From Halomicrobium mukohataei DSM 12286 (GTDB taxonomy: Archaea > Halobacteriota > Halobacteria > Halobacteriales > Haloarculaceae): a DNA stretch of 32,000 nt. The notes under the pieces are model-generated. The model did not search any database. It was not told the DNA's origin and saw nothing but the letters and a program-made list of their open reading frames with translations. Where the stretch lies: contig NC_013202.1 in the NCBI RefSeq assembly GCF_000023965.1, positions 1,350,001 to 1,382,000 of the forward strand. The letters are read 5' to 3'. Position 1 is the stretch's first letter, and the number at the start of each line of letters is the position of its first letter. A program made the position numbers and the translations under genes. Positions 8,146 through 15,796 of this stretch are shown one piece after another.

Positions 8146-9615
8146 TTAGTCCTCGCCGAGGTGGCGAACCGTCACCGAGTCGGGCACGCGAGCCAGCGCG
8201 CTCTCCGGCCACTCGAACTGCGCGAGCGTGACCGTCGCGTCGGGGTTGCACTCTGCCAGGCGGGCGACGCCGTCGGCGGCGGTCTCGTAGGCCTGTGGGG
8301 AGAGTCGCTCGGGGACTTCGGCGGTGAAGGGATAGGCGTCGCTCATCTCTCTGGGATAGGGGCCAAACGGGGGCGTCACCTGCCAGCTCTCGTCGTACTC
8401 TTCGTCGCGCTCGCCCTCGGTGAGCAGGATCGAGCCCGACAGGTCGAAGCGGTCGAGCCGCTGGTGGTGGCGCACGACCTCGGGGCGGCGCGCGCTCTCC
8501 GTCGACGTGTGGAAGACGGTGTCCTTGGCGATCCGATCGGTCGTTTCCAGCTGCTCGGCGTGGTCCAGTAGCGTCCGGTAGCCGTCGAGCATCGTCGGAT
8601 GTGCACGGGCCCGCGAGTCGACCAGTTCCATGAGATCCCCGTCTCTGATCGCCTGCTTGATCGTCCGGATCTCGCCGTAGGTGACGTGGAGGTTGTGGCG
8701 GGCCAGCAGGTCCTCGCCGCGCTGGTCGTCCATCGCCCTGAGGTCGGCGGGCTCGTACTCGACACAGACGGGACACGAGCAGGGGAAGTAGTCCATGTCG
8801 TCGAGGTGCTCGGTGCCCCGAACGGTGAGATACCGGCCGTCGCGAGCGTACAGCGCGTACGCCGCCGAGTCGAACAGGTCACAGCCAAGCGCGACGGCCA
8901 TCGCGAACATCATGGGGTGGCCGGCCCCGAACAGGTGGACCGGTGCGTCCTCGCCGAGCCCGCGCTTGCAGGCCGCGACCACGTCCGCCAGGTCGTCGTA
9001 GCGGTACTCGTTCATCAGCGGCACGACCGCGCCGACCGGGAACACGTCGAGGTCGGTCCCGTGTGCGTGCTCGGCCGCCCGCTCGCGCAGGTCGGGATAG
9101 GTCGAGCCCTGGATCGGCGCGGTCGTGAGCATCTCGCCGGTGTCGACGCCGTCGGCGATCTCCAGGCGCTCCTGGGTCGTCGCCAGCTCCGATTCGGCCC
9201 GCTCGCGCGCCACGTCCGGCGGCGTCGGGATGTCGACGGGCGTCCCGATGTCGCTCCCGATCTCTCGCTGGAAGGCCAGGATCTCCTCGGTCGTCACGTC
9301 GATCTCGCCGTACTCGGCCAGCTGGAAGGAGCCGGAGTCGGTCATGATCGCGCCGGGGAAATCGAGCAGCTCGTGGAGGCCCTGCCGTTCGGCCGGCTCG
9401 CGGAGGTCGTCGCTCTGGTGGAGGATGTAGCTGTTCGTGATGAGGATCTCCGCGCCGAACTCAGACGCCAGCGTGGACGGCTCGATCGTCTGGACGTGGG
9501 GGTTGACGACGGGCAGGAGTGCGGGCGTCTCGACGGTGACGCCGGCCCGGGGCACCGTCAGCTCGCCCAGACGGCCGGCCGCGTCGTACCGGCCGACTTC
9601 GAAGTGGTCTCGCAT
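8146..9615 (-). CDS. tgtA: tRNA-guanine(15) transglycosylase (archaeosine TGT)
   Basis: [39 protein letters not shown]…, DSGSFQ, LFGAGHP and CSCPVC motifs of archaeal TGT. 489 aa. Confidence 0.9.
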
Positions 9616-9657
9616 TACCCGCAGTGGGACGAGCGCGTGCCTAAGGGTTGCGTTCCG
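9530..9657. repeat. Direct repeat copy A: first 28 codons of tgtA plus 42 bp of its upstream region
   Basis: 128 bp match 12561-12688 (offset 3031) with a single mismatch at 9535/12566. Confidence 0.9.
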
Positions 9658-9762
9658 TGATAGTCAGTCAGCAGTCGCCGGTCCGCTGCTTGCCCGAGCC
9701 AGCGTGTCACCGAGCCGTCGGGCCGTCGGAACGTACAAAAATGCACCGCCGGTAGTGGGGCT

Positions 9763-10896
9763 ATGGATATCGCTGTCGCCTACGACAAATTCGGAAAGCG
9801 ATCCGCTTCGGGAGCACGCGTCTCGCTCCACACGTTGCTCGACGGGCTGCCTGACGCCTACTCTTTCAGTATCTACGATACGGTCCATCAGGACGAAGCG
9901 GTCCCCGACTTCGTCGACAGTAGACAGACGGTGTCCCCCAGACAGATACCGACGTTCGTTTGGACGAACCAGGTCCTCTATCGATGGCAGTGGCGAAACG
10001 GGGTGCGGGAGCGATTCGAAGCGAACGAGCACGACGTGGTGATCACACAGGGAGAAATCGCGCCAGCGACGGTACAGATCGCTGCCGAGACGGACACGCC
10101 TTCGATATTCTTTCTGAGGAGTTTGCAGGTCACCGGCACGGAGAAGTTCGATCCGCGCGACGACGCCGTCGAGAACTTTGCCCGCACCGATTTGGGCGGG
10201 CGCGTCCAGTTTCCGTTCCTCGCTCGAAACGTTCGAGCGTATCGGCGGGCCCTCGAGACGGCGGATGTCGTCGTAACCAACAGCGATTTCACCGCAGAGA
10301 GAGTACGAGAGCGGTTTGGGGTCGACAGCACGGTTATCTATCCCCCGATCACGCTATCCGACTACCGGGTCACGTCCGATCCCGACGGGAAGATCACGAT
10401 GGTGAATCCGAGATCGGCCGACAAAGGCGTCGATATCTTCCTCGACATCGCCGAACGGCTGCCCGACGAGGAGTTCCTGCTGGTCGGCACTGTCTCCCCC
10501 GACGCGGAGAAGCGCCGTGCCCAACGGCTCGACAACGTGACTCTGCACGGGTGGACTGACGACGTACGAGAGGCCTACGGGCAGTCGAAGCTCGTGGTGG
10601 TGCCGTCGAGGTACGAGGAACCGTTCGGCCGAGTGGCCGCCGAAGCGATGGTCAGCGCCATCCCCTGCGTGGTGAGCAACCGTGGCGGCCTCCCCGAAGT
10701 CGTCGGTGAGACCGGCGAGATCGTCGACGCGGTCGAGTCCGAGCGCGCCTGGATCAACGCCATCGAGCGGGCCCTGGCAACCGATCGTGGGGCGGCCCAG
10801 CGAGAGCGAGTCGAGCGGTTCGCCGCTGACAAGCAGGTCGAGAAGCTGCGCAAACTCGTCGAGCGCGCACAGTCCGGTCGTGGGACCGGAAACTGA
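9763..10896 (+). CDS. Glycosyltransferase, GT4 (GT-B fold) family
   Basis: 377 aa. The C-terminal segment VVVPSRYEEPFGRVAAEAMVSAIPCVVSNRGGLPEVV matches the E-x7-E retaining GT4 signature. Confidence 0.85.
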   Translation: MDIAVAYDKFGKRSASGARVSLHTLLDGLPDAYSFSIYDTVHQDEAVPDFVDSRQTVSPRQIPTFVWTNQVLYRWQWRNGVRERFEANEHDVVITQGEIAPATVQIAAETDTPSIFFLRSLQVTGTEKFDPRDDAVENFARTDLGGRVQFPFLARNVRAYRRALETADVVVTNSDFTAERVRERFGVDSTVIYPPITLSDYRVTSDPDGKITMVNPRSADKGVDIFLDIAERLPDEEFLLVGTVSPDAEKRRAQRLDNVTLHGWTDDVREAYGQSKLVVVPSRYEEPFGRVAAEAMVSAIPCVVSNRGGLPEVVGETGEIVDAVESERAWINAIERALATDRGAAQRERVERFAADKQVEKLRKLVERAQSGRGTGN

Positions 10897-10908
10897 GACG
10901 ACTGGCCG

Positions 10909-12354
10909 TTACTCTACGTAGCCGAGCTCTCGGAGCTGTTTCTCGACATCGCTGGACAGGTCGACATCTCGTGCGGTGTCGGAGACGCCCTCCAGTCGAT
11001 CGTTCAGAACCGTGCTCAGTTCTGCGACGATATCGCCGTGGTCGGCGGCGATGTTGTGCTGCTCGTCGGGATCCGTCCGGAGATCGTACAGGTGCTCTGT
11101 GTCGAGCTGGCGATTCCGGATGTATTTCCAGCGCTTCGACCGAACAGCGGCGACCAGCGTCTCTAGCGTCACGTCTCCTCCGAGCCCCTGCGTGTGACAC
11201 AGTTCGGCAATTGCGTAGTCGCGGTCTATCTGTCCCGTCTCATCACGAAGGGGTTCGAGCAGCGAAACGCCCCGCCATTCCGCCGGGGGGTCGACGCCGT
11301 ACCAGTCGGCGATCGTTGGCGCGATGTCGACGTGACTCCTCACTGCGTCGATGGAAGTCTCACCGGCGTACCGGCCGGAGTTGTCGTAGAGCAAAAGCGG
11401 CACTCGTATCAGCTCGTCGTACATTTTCGTCCGGTGGCCGAGCGTCCCCCGGTCGAACAGCTCTTCGCCGTGGTCCGCAGTGAACAGTACAACGCTGTCT
11501 TCGAGCAGTCCTCTGGCGTCGAGCTCGTCGACCAACCGTTTGGCCTCGCGGTCGACGTACCGTGTTGCCGCCGCGTAGAAATCCCGGAGGGCCTCGATTT
11601 CGGTCTCGGAGACAGCCTCAATCATCGAACCGTCGATAATGTCGGGCCGCGCGCGCCTGGCCTTGCGGACGACCCGTCGAATGCGTCCGACATCGTAGCG
11701 GCCGTCGTGGAACCGCTCGATATCTTCTCTGGGCGGATAGTACGGCGCGTGGGGCTCCATGTAGTGGGTCCAGACGAAGGCGTCCGCCGTCGTATCGACG
11801 TGCTGATCAACTAACGAGATGGTCGTATCGGTCACGTCTTCGGCACGGGGGTACGGACACGCTGGCGTGTCGTACACGTCTTTGAGCCCGTCGTACTGCA
11901 ATTTGAGTTCCGAGGCGATCGGGGAGAGAACCGGTGTGTTCTCTATCCCATCGACCAGCGTCGATTTCAGGCGGCGCGGAAAACTCTCGCCGGTCTGTTG
12001 GTCGTCGTCGACCCAGTCCTCGAACACCTCGAACCCACGGTCATAGTCATAAATACTGGAACAGGAAGTCTGGGCAGTGACACCAACCGTCTGGATCGAT
12101 GCATCGGAGAGAACCTCGGCGAGGGTGACGTGGTTCTCGTTCAGTCCGGCGTATCCGTGATCTAACGGGAGACTGCTCGCGTGAATACCGGGAAACGACG
12201 TTGATGTCCCGGAACCCGTCGAGATGTGCTGTGTGAACTCGATCGCATCTTCCTTGATAGAGTCGAGGAACGGGGTCGTCTGTGTCCCGTTTCTCGTGGC
12301 CGAAACGTGATCGTATCGCAACGCATCAAAAGAAATTACGAATACATTCGACAT
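10909..12354 (-). CDS. Sulfatase-fold (alkaline-phosphatase superfamily) enzyme, soluble, with a Thr-type active-site motif
   Basis: 481 aa. It has the N-terminal metal-binding segment VFVISFDALRYD, then GSGTSTSFPGIHAS, and later FTADHGEE. It is a paralog of 27273..28625, and both end in LRELGYVE / LRDLGYID. Confidence 0.85.
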   Translation of the reverse strand: MSNVFVISFDALRYDHVSATRNGTQTTPFLDSIKEDAIEFTQHISTGSGTSTSFPGIHASSLPLDHGYAGLNENHVTLAEVLSDASIQTVGVTAQTSCSSIYDYDRGFEVFEDWVDDDQQTGESFPRRLKSTLVDGIENTPVLSPIASELKLQYDGLKDVYDTPACPYPRAEDVTDTTISLVDQHVDTTADAFVWTHYMEPHAPYYPPREDIERFHDGRYDVGRIRRVVRKARRARPDIIDGSMIEAVSETEIEALRDFYAAATRYVDREAKRLVDELDARGLLEDSVVLFTADHGEELFDRGTLGHRTKMYDELIRVPLLLYDNSGRYAGETSIDAVRSHVDIAPTIADWYGVDPPAEWRGVSLLEPLRDETGQIDRDYAIAELCHTQGLGGDVTLETLVAAVRSKRWKYIRNRQLDTEHLYDLRTDPDEQHNIAADHGDIVAELSTVLNDRLEGVSDTARDVDLSSDVEKQLRELGYVE

Positions 12355-12451
12355 CTTGGACGAAGCTAGCCAAGACTCGGTAAAAAAGCACTGTGTAGTG
12401 CCGTGGGTCTCAGACGGTGGGGTTGCCTCGCGTCCCCGCCGACTTCACGAG

Positions 12452-12565
12452 CGCTCGAACAGCGCGTAGTAGAGCACGCCGGTCACGGTGCGCCCGTCAC
12501 GCAGTTCGTCTTTGCGGGCCGAATCGAGGAGTTCGTCGAGCGTCGTCGTCGCGACGCGGATCGAC
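12452..12565 (-). pseudogene. Orphan 3' fragment (last 38 codons) of a NUDIX hydrolase gene
   Basis: 114 bp align without gaps to 16848-16961 (offset 4396) with 5 mismatches. In the NUDIX frame, 3 are synonymous and 2 are conservative (A->S, E->K). Confidence 0.85.
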
Positions 12566-12688
12566 AGTGACGCCGGCCCGGGGCACCGTCAGCTCGCCCA
12601 GACGGCCGGCCGCGTCGTACCGGCCGACTTCGAAGTGGTCTCGCATTACCCGCAGTGGGACGAGCGCGTGCCTAAGGGTTGCGTTCCG
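12561..12688 (-). pseudogene. Orphan tgtA 5' fragment (start codon at 12644-12646 plus 28 codons) with a duplicated upstream/promoter region. It creates a 49-codon chimeric ORF at 12497-12646
   Basis: Copy A' of the 128-bp repeat. It joins the NUDIX fragment at a shared TCGAC (12561-12565). The chimeric ORF reads [28 protein letters not shown], then an out-of-frame DPRRDDDARRTPRFGPQRRTA*. Confidence 0.85.
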
Positions 12689-12749
12689 CGACCGAGCGGT
12701 ATCGATCTCTCGACGGTGGGTCCTCGCTGCCCCGCGCTGGGCAGTCCCG

Positions 12750-13304
12750 TCACTCCCTTTCGTCGCCGACCTGTCGCTGGATCCCCAGCCAGTGTGTCAC
12801 CGACCCGTCGGGGCCGGTGATCGGTGCGAGGGACACCCGGTTGCGAAATGGGGTCCCGTCTCGCCGGTAGTTCCGCAGTTCGACCGTGACACGCTCCCAG
12901 ATCGCCGTCGCCTCGCGGAGGTCGGCGACAGGTCCAGGCTCCGTGTCGGGACCCTGGAGAAAGCGGGGATTCTCGTCCAGTGCCTCTTCGAGCGAGTACC
13001 CCGTCAGGTCCCTGAAGCGCCGGTTCACGTACTGGATCGGGTTGTCCTGATACGCCGGCCCGGAGAGGGTGAGTCCGACGATCGCGTCGTCCAGCAGCCA
13101 GAGCCGCCAGACGAGTTCCCGAGTCCATCCCTCGACCCGCTCGCCAGCCGGCAGGACGGTCGGCGCGTCGAACGCCTCGATCCCGTCGTCAAAGGCGTCC
13201 GTTCGGGCGGCGAGGTCGTAGCGCTCGACGACCGTCGGGAACCGTCTCCGGAACGTCTCCGGGCCAGCGACGAGACAATCGGCGAGGTCGTCTCTGCGTC
13301 CCAT
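12750..13304 (-). CDS. Short LOV-type PAS domain protein lacking the adduct-forming cysteine (NCRFLQ -> NPRFLQ)
   Basis: 184 aa. Residues from about 75 to the end align by eye to phototropin LOV2. Matching segments are DNPIQYVNRRFRDLTGYSLEEALDENPRFLQGPDT…VTVELRNYRRDGTPFRNRVSLAPI…WLGIQRQ. The flavin-contacting R, Q, N, N and Q positions are kept, but Cys is Pro. Confidence 0.8.
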   Translation of the reverse strand: MGRRDDLADCLVAGPETFRRRFPTVVERYDLAARTDAFDDGIEAFDAPTVLPAGERVEGWTRELVWRLWLLDDAIVGLTLSGPAYQDNPIQYVNRRFRDLTGYSLEEALDENPRFLQGPDTEPGPVADLREATAIWERVTVELRNYRRDGTPFRNRVSLAPITGPDGSVTHWLGIQRQVGDERE

Positions 13305-13347
13305 CTCGTAGACTCGTCTTGCGGTTTCGGTGCAAAACGTCTGTCGT

Positions 13348-13590
13348 TCACTCGCCCCGAACCCGGTACCAGACCGTTTCGCCGACCGGCGACCTGCCGT
13401 CGAGGTCGAGTCGTCCCACGAACAGGTCCCGGACGGCGAACGTGACGGTCAGTTCGACGGACTCCCCGTCGTCGGCGCGGACCGTGACGACGCAGTGGCC
13501 GTCGCGTTCTTCGAGTGCCTCGATCTGCCCACGCTCCCACTGGTCGACGTGGTGGTCGGGCTCTCTGGCGTGGATGCGATCGTGGTTCAC
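13348..13590 (-). CDS. Small acidic hypothetical protein (80 aa)
   Basis: ATG start, acidic composition and GC3 bias. It overlaps the upstream ORF by 4 nt (13587-13590) and lies 43 nt upstream of the LOV gene. Confidence 0.55.
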   Translation of the reverse strand: MNHDRIHAREPDHHVDQWERGQIEALEERDGHCVVTVRADDGESVELTVTFAVRDLFVGRLDLDGRSPVGETVWYRVRGE

Positions 13591-13898
13591 GACGGGCTCC
13601 CGTCACAGCAGACGGTGTAACGAACGTCCGCGTCGACCAGGGCGGCGATCCGTTCGAGGACGGCAGTCGTCGTCTCCAGCGGGCCGAACTTGCTCACCGT
13701 CTCTCCGTCGGCTCGCAGGACGAGCGTCCACGCTGGGGCCTTCGCGGGCTCGTGACGCCGTTCGACGACGAGTGTCCGGTCGGGAAAGGCGAGTCGACAG
13801 TGGCCCTCGTCCGACACGGTCAGCGACACGCCCTCTCGGTCGCCGAACTGCTCTCGGAGCCCCACTTCGAGGTTAGCAGCGTGTTCTGGCTCGGTCAC
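13587..13898 (-). CDS. Small hypothetical protein (about 103 aa; VTEPEHAANLEVGLREQF…VRYTVCCDGSPS)
   Basis: Only the C-terminal third of the 201-aa track ORF looks like a haloarchaeal protein. A GTG at 13896-13898 is proposed as the start. The upstream part is Arg/Pro-rich and overlaps the divergent promoter and the flavoprotein gene. Confidence 0.4.
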   Translation of the reverse strand: MTEPEHAANLEVGLREQFGDREGVSLTVSDEGHCRLAFPDRTLVVERRHEPAKAPAWTLVLRADGETVSKFGPLETTTAVLERIAALVDADVRYTVCCDGSPS

Positions 13899-13999: not shown

Positions 14000-15796
14000 G
14001 TGAGCAACCCAGACACTGCCGACAGCGAGGAAACGTCTGTGCCCGGATACGAGCGAGTCGACGTCTCGGTACTCGTCGTTGGAGCGGGCGCTGCCGGCGC
14101 TCGTACGGCGATCGAACTCGCCGAGCGCGGCGTCGACGACGTGCTGGTGCTGGGCAAACGGAGCCACGGCGACGCGCACACGACGTGGGCACGCGGCGGT
14201 ATCAACGGCGCGCTGGGGACCCACGATCCGGATGACTCGTGGGCGATCCACGCCGCCGACACCCTCAACGAGGGCCACTTCGTCAACGACCCACAGAAGG
14301 TCGAGACGGTGACCAGACAGATGCCCGACCGCCTCAGGGAACTCGACGACTGGGGAATGGACTTCTCCCGGACGGAAGGCGGCGAGATCGACCAGCGATT
14401 CTTCGGTGCCCAGTCGTTCCGTCGAACGGCGTTCGCGGGCGATCACACCGGCGAGTCGATGCTGGAGACGCTCGTCGACCGGGCACAGGAGCTGTCGGTG
14501 CCGTACCGCGAGAACGTGATGATCACCAAGCTGCTGTCGGACGGTGACCAGTGCTACGGCGCGGTTGGGTTCGACATGGACTCCGGCGAGTTCGTGCTCG
14601 TCAACGCGGGGACGGTCGTGCTAGCGGCCGGTGGCTACGCCGCGGCCTACAACCGCCATACGTCTCGCGACGACGAGAACAACGGCGACGGTCCGGCACT
14701 GGCCTACCACGCGGGTGCCGAACTCGTGGACATGGAGTTCGTTCAGTTCCACCCGACGGGAATGGCGGTCGACGAAGACGATCCCGAGTGGGAGCCCTGG
14801 AGTGGGCGGCTCGTCACCGAGGCAGTTCGCGGCGAGGGAGGACACCTCTACAACACCGACGGCGAGCGGTTCATGGAGCGGTACTCGCCGGATCAGATGG
14901 AGCTGGACGCCCGCGACGTCGTCGCCCGAGCGATCGCACAGGAGATCGCGGAGGGGCGTGGCACCGACAACGGCGGCGTCTTCCTCGACCTCTCTCACAG
15001 AGACCGTACATTCATTCGAGAGCGTCTCCCGCGGATGTACGAGCGGTTCCAGGAACTGGGCGTCGACATGGCGACCGAACCCGTCGAAGTCGCGCCGACA
15101 GCCCACTACGGCATGGGTGGCGTCGCCGTCGACGAGCACGGGGAGACGGCCGTCGACGGACTGTTCGCGATCGGCGAGACGATGGCCGGCGTCCACGGTG
15201 CCAACCGACTCGGTGGCAACTCGCTGGCAGAGACCGTCGCGTTCGGCGTCGTTGCGGGCGAACGGATCGCCGAGCGCGTCGACGGAGCGGGGTACCTGCC
15301 CGAGGCGGTCGTCTCTGATATCGCCGACCCGCAGTTCCGTGGTCTGGCGACACTGGCCGGTCGAGACGGCGCTCACGACGTGACGGACGTGTTCACCGAA
15401 CTACAGGACCTGCTGTGGGAACACGCGGGTCTCCTGCGAACGGACACGTCGTTGCGGGCGGGCCTCGACGCACTCGACGAGGTCCGTCAGAAGGCCGCCG
15501 ACATGGACGTGGGTTCGGCGACGAGTTCGTCCTTCGAGTTCGCGATCGACATCGGGTTCATGCTGACCGCCGCCGAGGCGGTCCTGCGTGGCGCACTCGA
15601 ACGGACCGAGTCCCGGGGCGCACACTACCGGACCGACGAGACAGAGACGGATCCGGACTGGCAGTGCAACATCTACTTCGAACGCTCCGATGTCGGTGGC
15701 ATGCGGACCGAGACGCGACCGGTCGGCACGCCGAGCGACGCCGTCCAGGCGGCTCTCGACGAAGGACACGAACTGGATTACCACCAGCTCGAATGA
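14000..15796 (+). CDS. FAD-binding oxidoreductase of the succinate dehydrogenase / fumarate reductase / L-aspartate oxidase flavoprotein family
   Basis: 598 aa with a GTG start. Motifs are VLVVGAGAAGARTA (the GxGxxG dinucleotide fold), FVQFHPTG, RGEGG, PTAHYGMGG and ESRGAHYR. No Fe-S or membrane-anchor subunit genes are adjacent. Confidence 0.85.
   Translation: MSNPDTADSEETSVPGYERVDVSVLVVGAGAAGARTAIELAERGVDDVLVLGKRSHGDAHTTWARGGINGALGTHDPDDSWAIHAADTLNEGHFVNDPQKVETVTRQMPDRLRELDDWGMDFSRTEGGEIDQRFFGAQSFRRTAFAGDHTGESMLETLVDRAQELSVPYRENVMITKLLSDGDQCYGAVGFDMDSGEFVLVNAGTVVLAAGGYAAAYNRHTSRDDENNGDGPALAYHAGAELVDMEFVQFHPTGMAVDEDDPEWEPWSGRLVTEAVRGEGGHLYNTDGERFMERYSPDQMELDARDVVARAIAQEIAEGRGTDNGGVFLDLSHRDRTFIRERLPRMYERFQELGVDMATEPVEVAPTAHYGMGGVAVDEHGETAVDGLFAIGETMAGVHGANRLGGNSLAETVAFGVVAGERIAERVDGAGYLPEAVVSDIADPQFRGLATLAGRDGAHDVTDVFTELQDLLWEHAGLLRTDTSLRAGLDALDEVRQKAADMDVGSATSSSFEFAIDIGFMLTAAEAVLRGALERTESRGAHYRTDETETDPDWQCNIYFERSDVGGMRTETRPVGTPSDAVQAALDEGHELDYHQLE

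What the first reader, a model, noticed from the sequence alone, without database searches (positions are those of the whole stretch)
12750..13304. Short LOV domain protein with the photoactive cysteine replaced by proline (NPRFLQ)
The C-terminal 110 or so residues align position by position with canonical LOV domains. Matching blocks are DNPI…, F…LTGYS.EE, N-x-RFLQGP.T, V.L.NY…G..F.N and IGIQ. The flavin-contacting Arg, Gln, Asn, Asn and Gln positions are kept. The adduct-forming Cys of GxNCRFLQ, however, is Pro (DENPRFLQ). Published work shows that Cys-less LOV domains can still signal through flavin photoreduction to the neutral semiquinone, so this protein could sense light or redox by a non-adduct mechanism. 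It has no effector domain, only a 75-residue N-terminal extension. It appears co-oriented in an operon with two small acidic proteins, and it is divergent from a stand-alone flavoprotein oxidoreductase.
Basis: partly seen in the sequence, partly recalled or inferred. Interest (0 to 1): 0.7.

Follow-up and report, generated by a model that had tools for sequence, protein, structure and literature searches.

The report
Stand-alone cysteine-less LOV-like flavin sensor
This haloarchaeal gene encodes a small blue-light-sensor-type (LOV) flavin-binding protein whose normally essential reactive cysteine is replaced by proline; it belongs to a conserved archaeal family that never carries that cysteine, a kind of protein first described in 2015.

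Summary
The ORF at 12750-13304 (minus strand, 184 aa) has a LOV-type PAS core at residues ~75-181. That core carries every flavin-contacting residue but has Pro113 (CCC) where LOV photoreceptors have the adduct-forming Cys.

This is neither a sequencing error nor a strain oddity:
- About 135 homologues from many haloarchaeal genera have the same ~180-aa architecture.
- All of them carry Pro or Leu at that site, and none carries Cys. In the 121-sequence alignment the count is 83 Pro and 38 Leu.

The family forms its own clade, separate from the published Pro-containing BAT-LOV* domain. It has a private N-terminal four-helix cap found in no other protein, and two family-specific, nearly invariant tryptophans (W136, W172).

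The most likely function is a non-adduct flavin sensor. Light and/or cellular reductants would reduce and protonate the flavin, Gln176 would read this out, and the N-terminal cap would transmit it.

The "operon" reading is weak. No neighbour is conserved across 21 distinct family loci. The gene also has its own conserved upstream element (CGACAGACGTTTG), found across genera.

Natural Cys-to-Pro LOV-like domains in haloarchaea are already published (Yee et al. 2015). This is therefore a new, uncharacterised variant of a known kind, of moderate interest.

The parts
12750..13304 (-). Gene for the 184-aa stand-alone cysteine-less LOV-like (LOV*) protein. It is acidic (pI 4.7).
   Evidence: ORF list. 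Pfam, NCBIfam and PDB matches. 161 homologues. pI.
13083..13304 (-). N-terminal cap, residues 1-74. It is predicted as four helices (3-12, 15-28, 35-40, 59-70). The last helix is the amphipathic A'alpha-like helix ELVWRLWLLD. R4, F18, L64 and R67 are conserved.
   Evidence: The AF2 model is confident across this region, with 10-residue block pLDDT of 88-98. It has no structural or sequence match in the PDB. A profile of this module alone finds only 16 representatives among 1.84 billion proteins. The 15 real matches are all members, complete or truncated, of this same short family.
12762..13082 (-). LOV-type PAS core, residues 75-181.
   Evidence: Foldseek places it on LOV structures at rmsd about 1.1 A over 104 residues. 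phmmer against the PDB finds YtvA at 4e-24.
12966..12968 (-). [quoted passage not shown] It sits at the first turn of the predicted E-alpha helix (113-116).
   Evidence: Family counts at this site are P 83, L 38, C 0.
12777..12971 (-). Span holding the flavin-contact residues:
- N112 (12969-71)
- R114 (12963-65)
- Q117 (12954-56)
- R130 (12915-17)
- N145 (12870-72)
- N155 (12840-42)
- Q176 (12777-79)
   Evidence: Conservation across 121 sequences:
- N112, R114, Q117 and N145: 121/121
- N155: 120/121
- Q176: 117/121
- R130: 101/121
12897..12899 (-). Trp136, a family-specific, nearly invariant tryptophan in the F-alpha/G-beta loop.
   Evidence: Present in 120/121 family members. Present in 0/64 canonical LOV domains and 0/10 BAT-like Pro-LOV domains sampled.
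12789..12791 (-). Trp172, a nearly invariant tryptophan on strand I-beta, four residues before Gln176. By strand register it faces the flavin pocket. Canonical LOV domains have Phe or Tyr here.
   Evidence: Present in 120/121 family members. In canonical domains the position is F 34, Y 23, W 3 of 64. The pocket-facing orientation is an inference, because no model coordinates were available.
13329..13348 (-). Conserved upstream promoter/operator-like element AACGACAGACGTTTTGCACC. The family consensus is CGACAGACGTTTG(T), a near-palindrome ACAnACGTnTGT. It starts 44 nt before the ATG and overlaps the DUF7861 stop codon.
   Evidence: Leave-one-out PWM: the best site of the whole locus lies upstream of the family gene in 6 of 13 loci, and ranks 2-5 in 3 more. 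Out-of-sample test: it is the top hit of about 17,000 positions in 3 of 4 new loci. Every PWM hit of at least 18.7 in 2.0 Mb scanned is upstream of a family gene.
13348..13590 (-). Neighbouring gene for an 80-aa DUF7861 protein (pI 5.0). It is co-oriented and lies 43 nt upstream of the LOV* gene. The linkage is not conserved in the family.
   Evidence: Pfam 9.2e-40. It is adjacent in only 3 distinct family loci, and is convergent in one of them.
13587..13898 (-). Neighbouring 103-aa ORF with no Pfam family (pI 4.8). Its stop overlaps the DUF7861 start by 4 nt. It is seen next to the LOV* gene only in Halomicrobium.

Best explanation
The gene encodes a cytoplasmic, stand-alone LOV-like flavoprotein. 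It consists of an N-terminal four-helix cap followed by a LOV core.

Proposed mechanism:
1. The core binds a flavin (FMN, possibly FAD or riboflavin) non-covalently, through the canonical Asn/Arg/Gln/Asn/Asn/Gln set.
2. Position 113 is Pro (Pro or Leu throughout the family), and many members contain no cysteine at all. The canonical Cys-C4a photoadduct therefore cannot form.
3. The signalling state is instead a reduced flavin protonated at N5 (neutral semiquinone or hydroquinone).
4. That state is produced by blue-light photoreduction, with electrons from nearby aromatic residues (the family-invariant Trp172 and Trp136 are the candidates) or from cellular reductants, and/or by direct chemical reduction when the cytoplasm is reducing.
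5. The conserved Gln176 senses N5 protonation and passes the change through the beta-sheet to the N-terminal cap and its A'alpha-like helix.
6. This changes self-association or binding to an unlinked partner protein.

The gene is transcribed from its own conserved promoter/operator.

Shown here: the fold, the residue pattern, the absence of Cys, family-wide conservation, the private N-terminal cap and the conserved upstream element.

Inferred: flavin binding, photoreduction or chemical reduction, the Gln-to-cap relay and the nature of the output.
For: - LOV identity by sequence and by fold.
- The flavin-contact residues are among the most strongly conserved positions in a family that diverges to 41% identity. 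N112, R114, Q117 and N145 are present in 121/121, N155 in 120 and Q176 in 117. This argues for selection to keep a flavin and to keep the N5-sensing Gln.
- The Cys site is P 83 / L 38 / C 0. 52 of 121 members have no Cys anywhere, so no relocated cysteine can substitute. The 12 additional family members from the N-terminal profile search whose sequence reaches this motif are also P or L.
- Experimental precedent (PMC4682037). Cys-less VVD and YF1 signal through the neutral semiquinone. The natural haloarchaeal Pro-containing BAT-LOV* binds FAD, FMN or riboflavin, photoreduces slowly, is readily reduced chemically, and changes conformation on reduction.
- Trp is the electron donor in Cys-less LOV variants (PMC5645311).
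- W136 and W172 are invariant and family-specific.
- The position where BAT-LOV* has its quenching Trp172 is Phe97 here. Yee et al. associate Phe there with efficient photoreduction.
- The N-terminal cap is confidently predicted as folded and occurs only together with this core.
Against: - Nothing biochemical is known for this family. Flavin occupancy is inferred.
- Even BAT-LOV* bound only modest flavin when made in E. coli.
- R130, the second phosphate-binding Arg, is replaced in 20 of 121 members.
- Pro or Leu above C4a, and two nearby Trp residues, could quench the excited flavin. The protein might then be a poor photoreceptor and essentially a dark redox sensor.
- No conserved partner, effector or neighbour was found to indicate an output.
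- Distances from W136 and W172 to the flavin could not be measured, because no model coordinates were available.
Confidence: 0.62

Rival explanations
1. The protein is a dark redox or oxygen sensor only. The flavin is reduced and reoxidised by the cellular redox pool, as in NifL, Aer or Bat. Light plays no physiological role, and Pro/Leu plus the two Trp residues serve to suppress photochemistry and production of reactive oxygen species in a sun-exposed organism.
For: - Wild-type BAT-LOV* photoreduces about two orders of magnitude more slowly than VVD-III, because of an internal Trp quencher, yet is readily and fully reduced chemically with a conformational change.
- This family has two invariant Trp residues.
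- The replacement for Cys is always bulky and unreactive (Pro or Leu), never Ala, Gly or Ser.
Against: - Sequence similarity is far greater to LOV photoreceptors than to NifL-type redox PAS domains (105.7 against 35.2 bits).
- The site equivalent to the BAT quencher is Phe here.
- Natural Cys-less haloarchaeal LOV domains do show light-driven radical-pair chemistry.
- Any bound oxidised flavin absorbs blue light, so a light effect is hard to avoid in a haloarchaeon.
Confidence: 0.22
2. The protein is a PAS domain that no longer binds flavin. It would bind another ligand or none, and act as a scaffold or protein-interaction module.
For: - The defining Cys is lost.
- F115 of the motif is Leu in most members, and R130 varies.
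- Pfam annotates it only as a generic PAS domain.
Against: - The residues that hydrogen-bond the isoalloxazine ring and the phosphate are exactly the invariant ones in a family down to 41% identity.
- The modelled core matches flavin-bound LOV structures at about 1.1 A.
- The Pro-containing BAT-LOV* does bind flavins.
Confidence: 0.1
3. The feature is an artefact. Either the Pro codon is a sequencing error or strain-specific mutation in a normal LOV photoreceptor, or the ORF is not a real gene.
For: None found.
Against: - 161 homologues at E <= 1e-5.
- Pro or Leu, never Cys, in about 135 sequences from many genera.
- CCC differs from TGY at two bases.
- The N-terminus and the upstream element are both conserved.
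Confidence: 0.01

Closest known systems
BAT-LOV* (the LOV-like domain of the bacterio-opsin activator Bat of Halorubrum hochstenium; Yee et al. 2015, PMC4682037)
   Same: - It is haloarchaeal.
- It has a LOV fold with the flavin-contact residues and the active-site Gln retained.
- The adduct Cys is naturally replaced by Pro.
- Experiments showed that it binds flavins and changes conformation on flavin reduction.
   Different: [quoted passage not shown] The window protein is stand-alone (184 aa) with a private N-terminal four-helix cap.
- The two fall in separate clades of a neighbour-joining tree.
- BAT-like domains have the quenching Trp at the position that is Phe97 here.
- BAT-like domains lack W136 and carry Tyr or Phe at position 172.
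- About a third of the short family uses Leu instead of Pro.
Short LOV proteins with helical extensions only (VVD of Neurospora with its N-terminal cap; DsLOV, PpSB1/2-LOV, RsLOV)
   Same: - They have a LOV core plus flanking helices and no fused effector.
- Their output is by cap or helix rearrangement and a change in oligomerisation or partner binding.
- DsLOV and the LOV core of YtvA (itself a LOV-STAS protein, not a short LOV) are among the best sequence and structure matches.
- Cys-less VVD still signals through the semiquinone.
   Different: - All of these have the adduct-forming Cys and a canonical photocycle.
- This family is archaeal, and short LOV proteins were not among the archaeal LOV architectures surveyed in 2014 (PMC4844311).
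HsuLOV (Halanaeroarchaeum sulfurireducens) and amb2291 (Magnetospirillum): other natural Cys-less LOV domains
   Same: They are natural LOV domains without the Cys. HsuLOV is reported to photoreduce reversibly to the neutral semiquinone and to show radical-pair magneto-fluorescence.
   Different: Both are domains of longer proteins (residues 266-399 and 335-467). I could not retrieve their sequences to compare them directly.
Flavin-PAS redox sensors NifL, Aer and MmoS
   Same: They are PAS domains that signal through the redox state of a non-covalently bound flavin, without photochemistry.
   Different: The sequence relationship is much more distant (NifL model 35 bits against a cutoff of 242). 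Those proteins lack the LOV NxRFLQ signature.

Membership tests
Canonical LOV photoreceptor domain | PAS fold of the LOV subtype | tested here: met
   The AF2 model has pLDDT 94.7. Foldseek places it on LOV crystal structures at rmsd about 1.1 A over 104 residues, target TM-score 0.93-0.95. All 60 PDB sequence hits shown are LOV domains.
Canonical LOV photoreceptor domain | Flavin-contacting residues (YtvA N61, R63, Q66, R79, N94, N104, Q123) | tested here: met
   All are present: N112, R114, Q117, R130, N145, N155, Q176. They are invariant or nearly so in the family.
Canonical LOV photoreceptor domain | Adduct-forming Cys in the GxNCRFLQ motif | tested here: not met
   The motif is DENPRFLQ. 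The family count at this site is P 83, L 38, C 0 of 121, and 52 members have no Cys at all.
Canonical LOV photoreceptor domain | Blue-light photocycle with the 390-nm flavin-cysteinyl adduct | not testable with these tools
   This needs spectroscopy. It is chemically excluded without a Cys at the site.
Cys-less LOV-like domains (LOV*) as defined by Yee et al. 2015 | Lacks C62 but keeps at least 9 of 10 other conserved residues. Those listed are YtvA G59, N61, R63, F64, L65, Q66, N94, N104 and Q123. | tested here: inconclusive
   8 of the 9 listed residues are present. The only miss is G59, which is D110 here. Most family members instead have the Gly but carry Leu at F64. The tenth residue is not named in the text, so the 9/10 threshold cannot be checked strictly. 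Yee's list includes 18 'PAS_9 only' entries, given as GI numbers that I could not resolve.
BAT-type LOV* (bacterio-opsin activator) | [quoted passage not shown] | tested here: not met
   This is a 184-aa stand-alone protein. It forms a separate clade from the BAT-size Pro-LOV ORFs.
Short LOV proteins | LOV core with only helical N- or C-terminal extensions and no effector domain | tested here: met
   Pfam finds only PAS. The N-terminal 74 residues are helical and there is no C-terminal extension. The photoactive Cys that known short LOV proteins have is absent.
YtvA family blue-light photoreceptor (NCBIfam NF052652) | Full-length match above the curated cutoff (LOV plus STAS) | tested here: not met
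   105.7 bits against a cutoff of 250. Only model positions 5-118 (the LOV part) match.
NifL/Aer-type flavin PAS redox sensors | Profile match to the family model | tested here: not met
   The NifL model TIGR02938 gives 35.2 bits against a cutoff of 242.

The most novel reading that the evidence does not exclude
The short LOV* family is a Halobacteria-wide, anciently cysteine-free photoreceptor. Within a LOV fold it has evolved cryptochrome-like chemistry:
- A dedicated Trp (W172 and/or W136)-to-flavin electron transfer gives a radical pair and then a neutral semiquinone.
- A private four-helix N-terminal cap reads this out.
- Expression is controlled by a conserved palindromic operator.

It would then be a natural, evolutionarily optimised stand-alone non-adduct LOV photoreceptor (and potentially a magnetically sensitive one), rather than a degenerate or merely redox-sensing relative.
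Probability: 0.25. Interest if true: 0.65.

Novelty: new variant of a known kind. Interest (0 to 1): 0.42.

Why it matters
Natural LOV domains without the adduct cysteine bear on two questions: how LOV photoreceptors evolved from redox flavoproteins, and whether flavin photoreduction alone is a physiological signalling mechanism. Only a few have been studied (BAT-LOV*, HsuLOV, amb2291). All of those are excised domains of large proteins.

This family offers a compact, full-length natural example:
- It is present in many haloarchaeal genera.
- It has never reverted to Cys.
- It has its own output module (the N-terminal cap).
- It has two invariant candidate electron-donor tryptophans.
- It has a conserved cis-regulatory element.

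That makes it a tractable system for testing non-adduct LOV signalling. Given current interest in radical-pair effects in Cys-less LOV domains, it is also a candidate scaffold for fluorescent, optogenetic or magneto-responsive tools that work at high salt. The basic idea, a Cys-to-Pro LOV-like domain in haloarchaea, is already published, so the finding adds to that idea and does not overturn it.

Tried and rejected
1. Functional inference from gene neighbourhood.
- I ran tblastn of the window's neighbours against 80 loci from the genome scan, and all-against-all clustering of ORFs within 4 kb of 12 family loci.
- I examined Pfam-annotated contexts for 12 family members.
- No neighbour is conserved. 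DUF7861 is adjacent in 3 distinct loci and a TGT/PUA gene in 3.
- The operon reading is therefore rejected as a family property.

2. Looking for the N-terminal cap elsewhere.
- A profile search against PDB sequences gave only chance hits at E > 1.
- Foldseek aligned only the core.
- A profile search of 1.84 billion representatives found only this same architecture, plus one spurious repeat protein.
- No fusion to an effector exists that would reveal the output.

3. A relocated adduct cysteine. Rejected, because 52 of 121 members have no Cys.

4. Sequencing error or pseudogene. Rejected.

5. The genome-contig scan used generic LOV peptide patterns. It returned mostly LOV domains of other proteins and only about 8 true family loci. 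It was still useful as a comparison set of canonical and BAT-like domains.

6. Literature.
- No paper mentions DUF7861.
- No paper in the library combines LOV, haloarchaea and neutral semiquinone.
- The primary HsuLOV paper is not in the library.
- One hit (PMC10221578) was irrelevant.
- GI numbers in Yee et al.'s supplement could not be resolved to check whether this family is among their 18 'PAS_9 only' entries.

7. The bacterial sigma-70 and intrinsic-terminator scan gave nothing meaningful for an archaeon.

8. Measuring Trp-to-flavin distances or docking FMN was not possible, because the model's coordinates are not exposed.
Full report
**The observation**

The minus-strand ORF at 12750-13304 (ATG start, 184 aa) exists as described. 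It reads ...LDENPRFLQGPDTEPG..., with Pro113 encoded by CCC at 12966-12968.

LOV identity is well supported:
- Pfam sees only generic PAS models (PAS_9, 4.4e-12).
- The best NCBIfam model is the YtvA blue-light photoreceptor family (2.7e-30, 105.7 bits, LOV part only). The flavin redox sensor NifL scores only 35 bits.
- All 60 PDB chains shown by sequence search are LOV domains: YtvA 4e-24, DsLOV, EL222, aureochrome, phototropin.
- Those alignments put Pro113 exactly on the adduct Cys (YtvA C62).
- They also put N112, R114, Q117, R130, N145, N155 and Q176 on the flavin-contacting residues.

An AlphaFold2 model built on 121 sequences is very confident (pLDDT 94.7, pTM 0.90). Its core superposes on LOV crystal structures at about 1.1 A over 104 residues, with target TM-score 0.93-0.95.

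**The protein belongs to a family, and the family never has the cysteine**

A search of 5.8 billion proteins returned 161 homologues at E <= 1e-5. The 120 listed are 146-226 aa long, and every one that carries an organism name is named for a haloarchaeon. Genera include Halomicrobium, Salinigranum, Halogeometricum, Halobaculum, Halapricum, Halogranum, Salinirubrum, Halohasta, Natronomonas and Haloplanus. Genome loci add Haloarcula, Haloquadratum, Halosimplex, Halobellus and Halonotius.

In the 121-sequence alignment, identity to the query ranges from 41% to 96%:

| Position | Count out of 121 |
|---|---|
| Cys site (113) | Pro 83, Leu 38, Cys 0 |
| N112, R114, Q117, N145 | 121 each |
| N155 | 120 |
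| Q176 | 117 |
| R130 | 101 |

- 52 of the 121 members contain no cysteine at all, so a relocated adduct cysteine is excluded.
- Twelve further family members from an independent profile search, those whose sequence reaches this motif, also carry Pro or Leu.
- CCC differs from the Cys codons at two bases.
- The "sequencing error" refutation therefore fails.
- The pattern of invariant residues argues that the pocket, and the N5-sensing glutamine, are under selection.

**What distinguishes the family**

I sampled LOV cores from haloarchaeal and bacterial loci and built a neighbour-joining tree. This is crude and has no bootstraps.
- The short proteins form one long-stemmed clade.
- That clade is separate from the canonical Cys-containing haloarchaeal LOV domains.
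- It is also separate from the BAT-size Pro-containing ORFs, and from a third Pro-containing group in roughly 1500-aa ORFs.
- Pro and Leu interchange repeatedly within the clade.

Two tryptophans are nearly invariant (120/121) and family-specific:
- W136 lies in the F-alpha/G-beta loop. It is absent from 64 canonical and 10 BAT-like domains.
- W172 lies on I-beta, four residues before Q176, where canonical domains have Phe or Tyr. By strand register W172 should point into the flavin pocket.
- The position where BAT-LOV* has its fluorescence-quenching Trp172 is Phe97 here.

The N-terminal 74 residues are confidently modelled as four helices. The last is an amphipathic A'alpha-like helix, ELVWRLWLLD.
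- They have no relative in the PDB by sequence or fold.
- A profile of this segment alone, run against 1.84 billion representatives, found 16 hits. Fifteen are members, complete or truncated, of this same short family, and one is a spurious repeat protein.
- The cap is therefore a private module of this family. It is never fused to an effector, so no fusion exists to point to the output.

**Genomic context**

- A 103-aa ORF (13587-13898) overlaps by 4 nt the start of a DUF7861 ORF (13348-13590).
- The DUF7861 ORF ends 43 nt before the LOV* start.
- Both small proteins are acidic (pI 4.8 and 5.0).
- An SdhA/TfrA/NadB-like flavoprotein (14000-15796) is divergent.

Halomicrobium katesii has the same arrangement; its protein is 96% identical.

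Across 21 distinct family loci, however, nothing is conserved:
- DUF7861 is adjacent in three distinct loci, and in one of them it is convergent.
- A tRNA-guanine transglycosylase or PUA gene is nearby in three loci.
- Elsewhere the gene sits alone between unrelated genes, often on the opposite strand.

**The gene has its own conserved upstream element**

The consensus is CGACAGACGTTTG(T), a near-palindrome ACAnACGTnTGT. It begins 38-54 nt upstream of the start codon. In the window it lies at 13329-13348 and overlaps the DUF7861 stop codon.
- I picked the training sites by eye, so I tested the motif two ways.
- Leave-one-out: the upstream site is the best of the whole locus in 6 of 13 loci, and ranks 2-5 in 3 more.
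- Out-of-sample, in four newly fetched loci: the top-scoring position of about 17,000 falls at -42 to -49 in three of them, from Halogeometricum, Halobaculum and Halogranum.
- In 2.0 Mb scanned, every hit of at least 18.7 bits lies upstream of a family gene.
- Its TTTG sits about 28-33 nt before the ATG in most loci. That position is consistent with an archaeal TATA-like box for a leaderless or short-leader mRNA. This is an inference from general knowledge of haloarchaeal promoters.
- The gene is thus best read as its own transcription unit under a shared regulator, not as the third gene of a conserved operon.

**How it most likely works**

Experimental precedent exists.
- Yee et al. (PMC4682037) showed that Cys-less VVD and YF1 still signal, because flavin N5 protonation in the neutral semiquinone mimics the adduct.
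- They listed about 70 natural Cys-less LOV-like proteins, with Ala, His or Pro at the site, including 18 with a PAS_9-only architecture.
- They showed that the haloarchaeal Pro-containing BAT-LOV* binds FAD, FMN or riboflavin.
- BAT-LOV* photoreduces slowly because of an internal Trp quencher. It is readily reduced chemically, and it changes conformation on reduction.
- Trp is the electron donor in Cys-less LOV variants (PMC5645311).
- A 2026 preprint reports radical-pair magneto-fluorescence in wild-type HsuLOV and in a W172F mutant of BAT-LOV; wild-type BAT-LOV responded at most weakly.

On this basis I propose the following, at confidence about 0.6.
1. The window protein binds a flavin non-covalently.
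2. The flavin is converted by blue light and/or reductants to an N5-protonated reduced state.
3. Gln176 detects that state and relays it through the sheet to the N-terminal cap.
4. This changes oligomerisation or binding to an unlinked partner.

The main rival, at about 0.2, is a purely dark redox sensor in which Pro/Leu and the Trp residues suppress photochemistry. Loss of flavin binding (about 0.1) and artefact (about 0.01) are unlikely, given the conservation pattern.

**Comparison with known families**

The protein works like, and is related to, LOV domains. It fails the defining Cys test, so it is not a canonical LOV photoreceptor.

Against the published LOV* definition:
- It has 8 of the 9 listed conserved residues.
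- The one miss is G59, which is D110 here.
- The tenth residue of that definition is unnamed, so the test is inconclusive.

It is not a BAT-type domain, because both architecture and clade differ. It is not a YtvA family member (105.7 against 250 bits). It is not NifL-like.

It resembles short LOV proteins such as VVD and DsLOV in having only helical extensions. Archaeal LOV surveys described only HTH- and kinase-linked architectures (PMC4844311).

**Novelty and interest**

The central idea of the finding, a natural Cys-to-Pro LOV-like domain in a haloarchaeon that might signal by flavin reduction, has been in the literature since 2015.

I did not find the following described:
- A Halobacteria-wide family of stand-alone proteins with this core.
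- Its private N-terminal cap.
- The Pro/Leu alternation with no Cys at all.
- The invariant Trp pair.
- The conserved upstream element.

I rate it a new variant of a known kind, with interest about 0.4. It is a good experimental target, but it does not overturn anything.

**Seen in passing**

The window differs from H. katesii by a 3,031-bp insertion between the LOV* gene and tgtA.
- It carries a GT4 glycosyltransferase (9763-10896) and a sulfatase (10909-12354).
- It is bounded by a 136-nt direct repeat (9525-9660 and 12556-12691, 97% identical).
- That repeat duplicates the tgtA 5' end and leaves a truncated tgtA stub just downstream of the LOV* gene.

Noticed in passing
window 9525-9660 and 12556-12691 (with 9661-12555 between them): A 136-nt direct repeat (97% identical, spacing 3031) duplicates the 5' end of tgtA (archaeosine tRNA-guanine transglycosylase, 8146-9615 -). 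It brackets a roughly 3-kb insertion carrying a GT4 glycosyltransferase (9763-10896 +) and a sulfatase (10909-12354 -). A truncated tgtA stub ([28 protein letters not shown]..., then out of register and stopped) sits just downstream of the LOV* gene. In Halomicrobium katesii, tgtA follows the LOV* gene directly. This looks like a recent insertion or recombination event in a cell-surface glycosylation region.
   Followed up: partly
window 13329-13348 (-); also L090 3955, L092 3959, L004 5943, L002 5941, L093 3956, L094 3952, L001 2481: A conserved near-palindromic element, CGACAGACGTTTG(T) (ACAnACGTnTGT), lies 38-54 nt upstream of the start codon of short LOV* genes in many haloarchaeal genera. 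It was validated out-of-sample: it was the top hit of the locus in 3 of 4 new loci. It is probably a promoter plus the operator of an unknown shared regulator. No other genes carrying it were seen in the 2 Mb sampled.
   Followed up: partly
window 13348-13898 (-): A 103-aa ORF with no Pfam family and an 80-aa DUF7861 ORF overlap by 4 nt, which suggests translational coupling. DUF7861 also lies next to the LOV* gene in a metagenomic relative (L081), but there it is convergent and preceded by a different 57-aa ORF. No literature on DUF7861 was found.
   Followed up: partly
loci L008, L010 (roughly 1500-aa ORFs); L019, L031, L033, L043, L044, L052, L055 (BAT-size ORFs): Haloarchaea carry at least three separate groups of LOV-like domains with Pro at the Cys site: the short family, BAT-like regulators, and very large multi-domain proteins. 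These sit alongside many canonical NCRFLQ LOV domains. In a crude neighbour-joining tree the three Pro groups do not cluster together, which suggests repeated loss of the Cys.
   Followed up: partly
L081 6167-7645; L089 1905-3677 and 4650-6227; L087 4530-5792; L088 4559-5551; L091 2483-3874; window 14000-15796: Neighbours of family genes, although not conserved, are often related to light, oxygen or flavin:
- an RPE65-type carotenoid oxygenase
- a protoglobin-MCP transducer
- a photolyase-related DPRP protein
- several flavoproteins (amine-oxidase-like, luciferase-like, FAD_binding_3, SdhA-like)
I made no statistical test against background, so this may be chance.
   Followed up: no
window 14000-15796 (+): A stand-alone 598-aa SdhA/TfrA/L-aspartate-oxidase-like flavoprotein scores below every NCBIfam equivalog cutoff (best is TfrA, 542 against 718 bits). 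No iron-sulfur or membrane-anchor subunit gene lies next to it, and its substrate is unknown.
   Followed up: no
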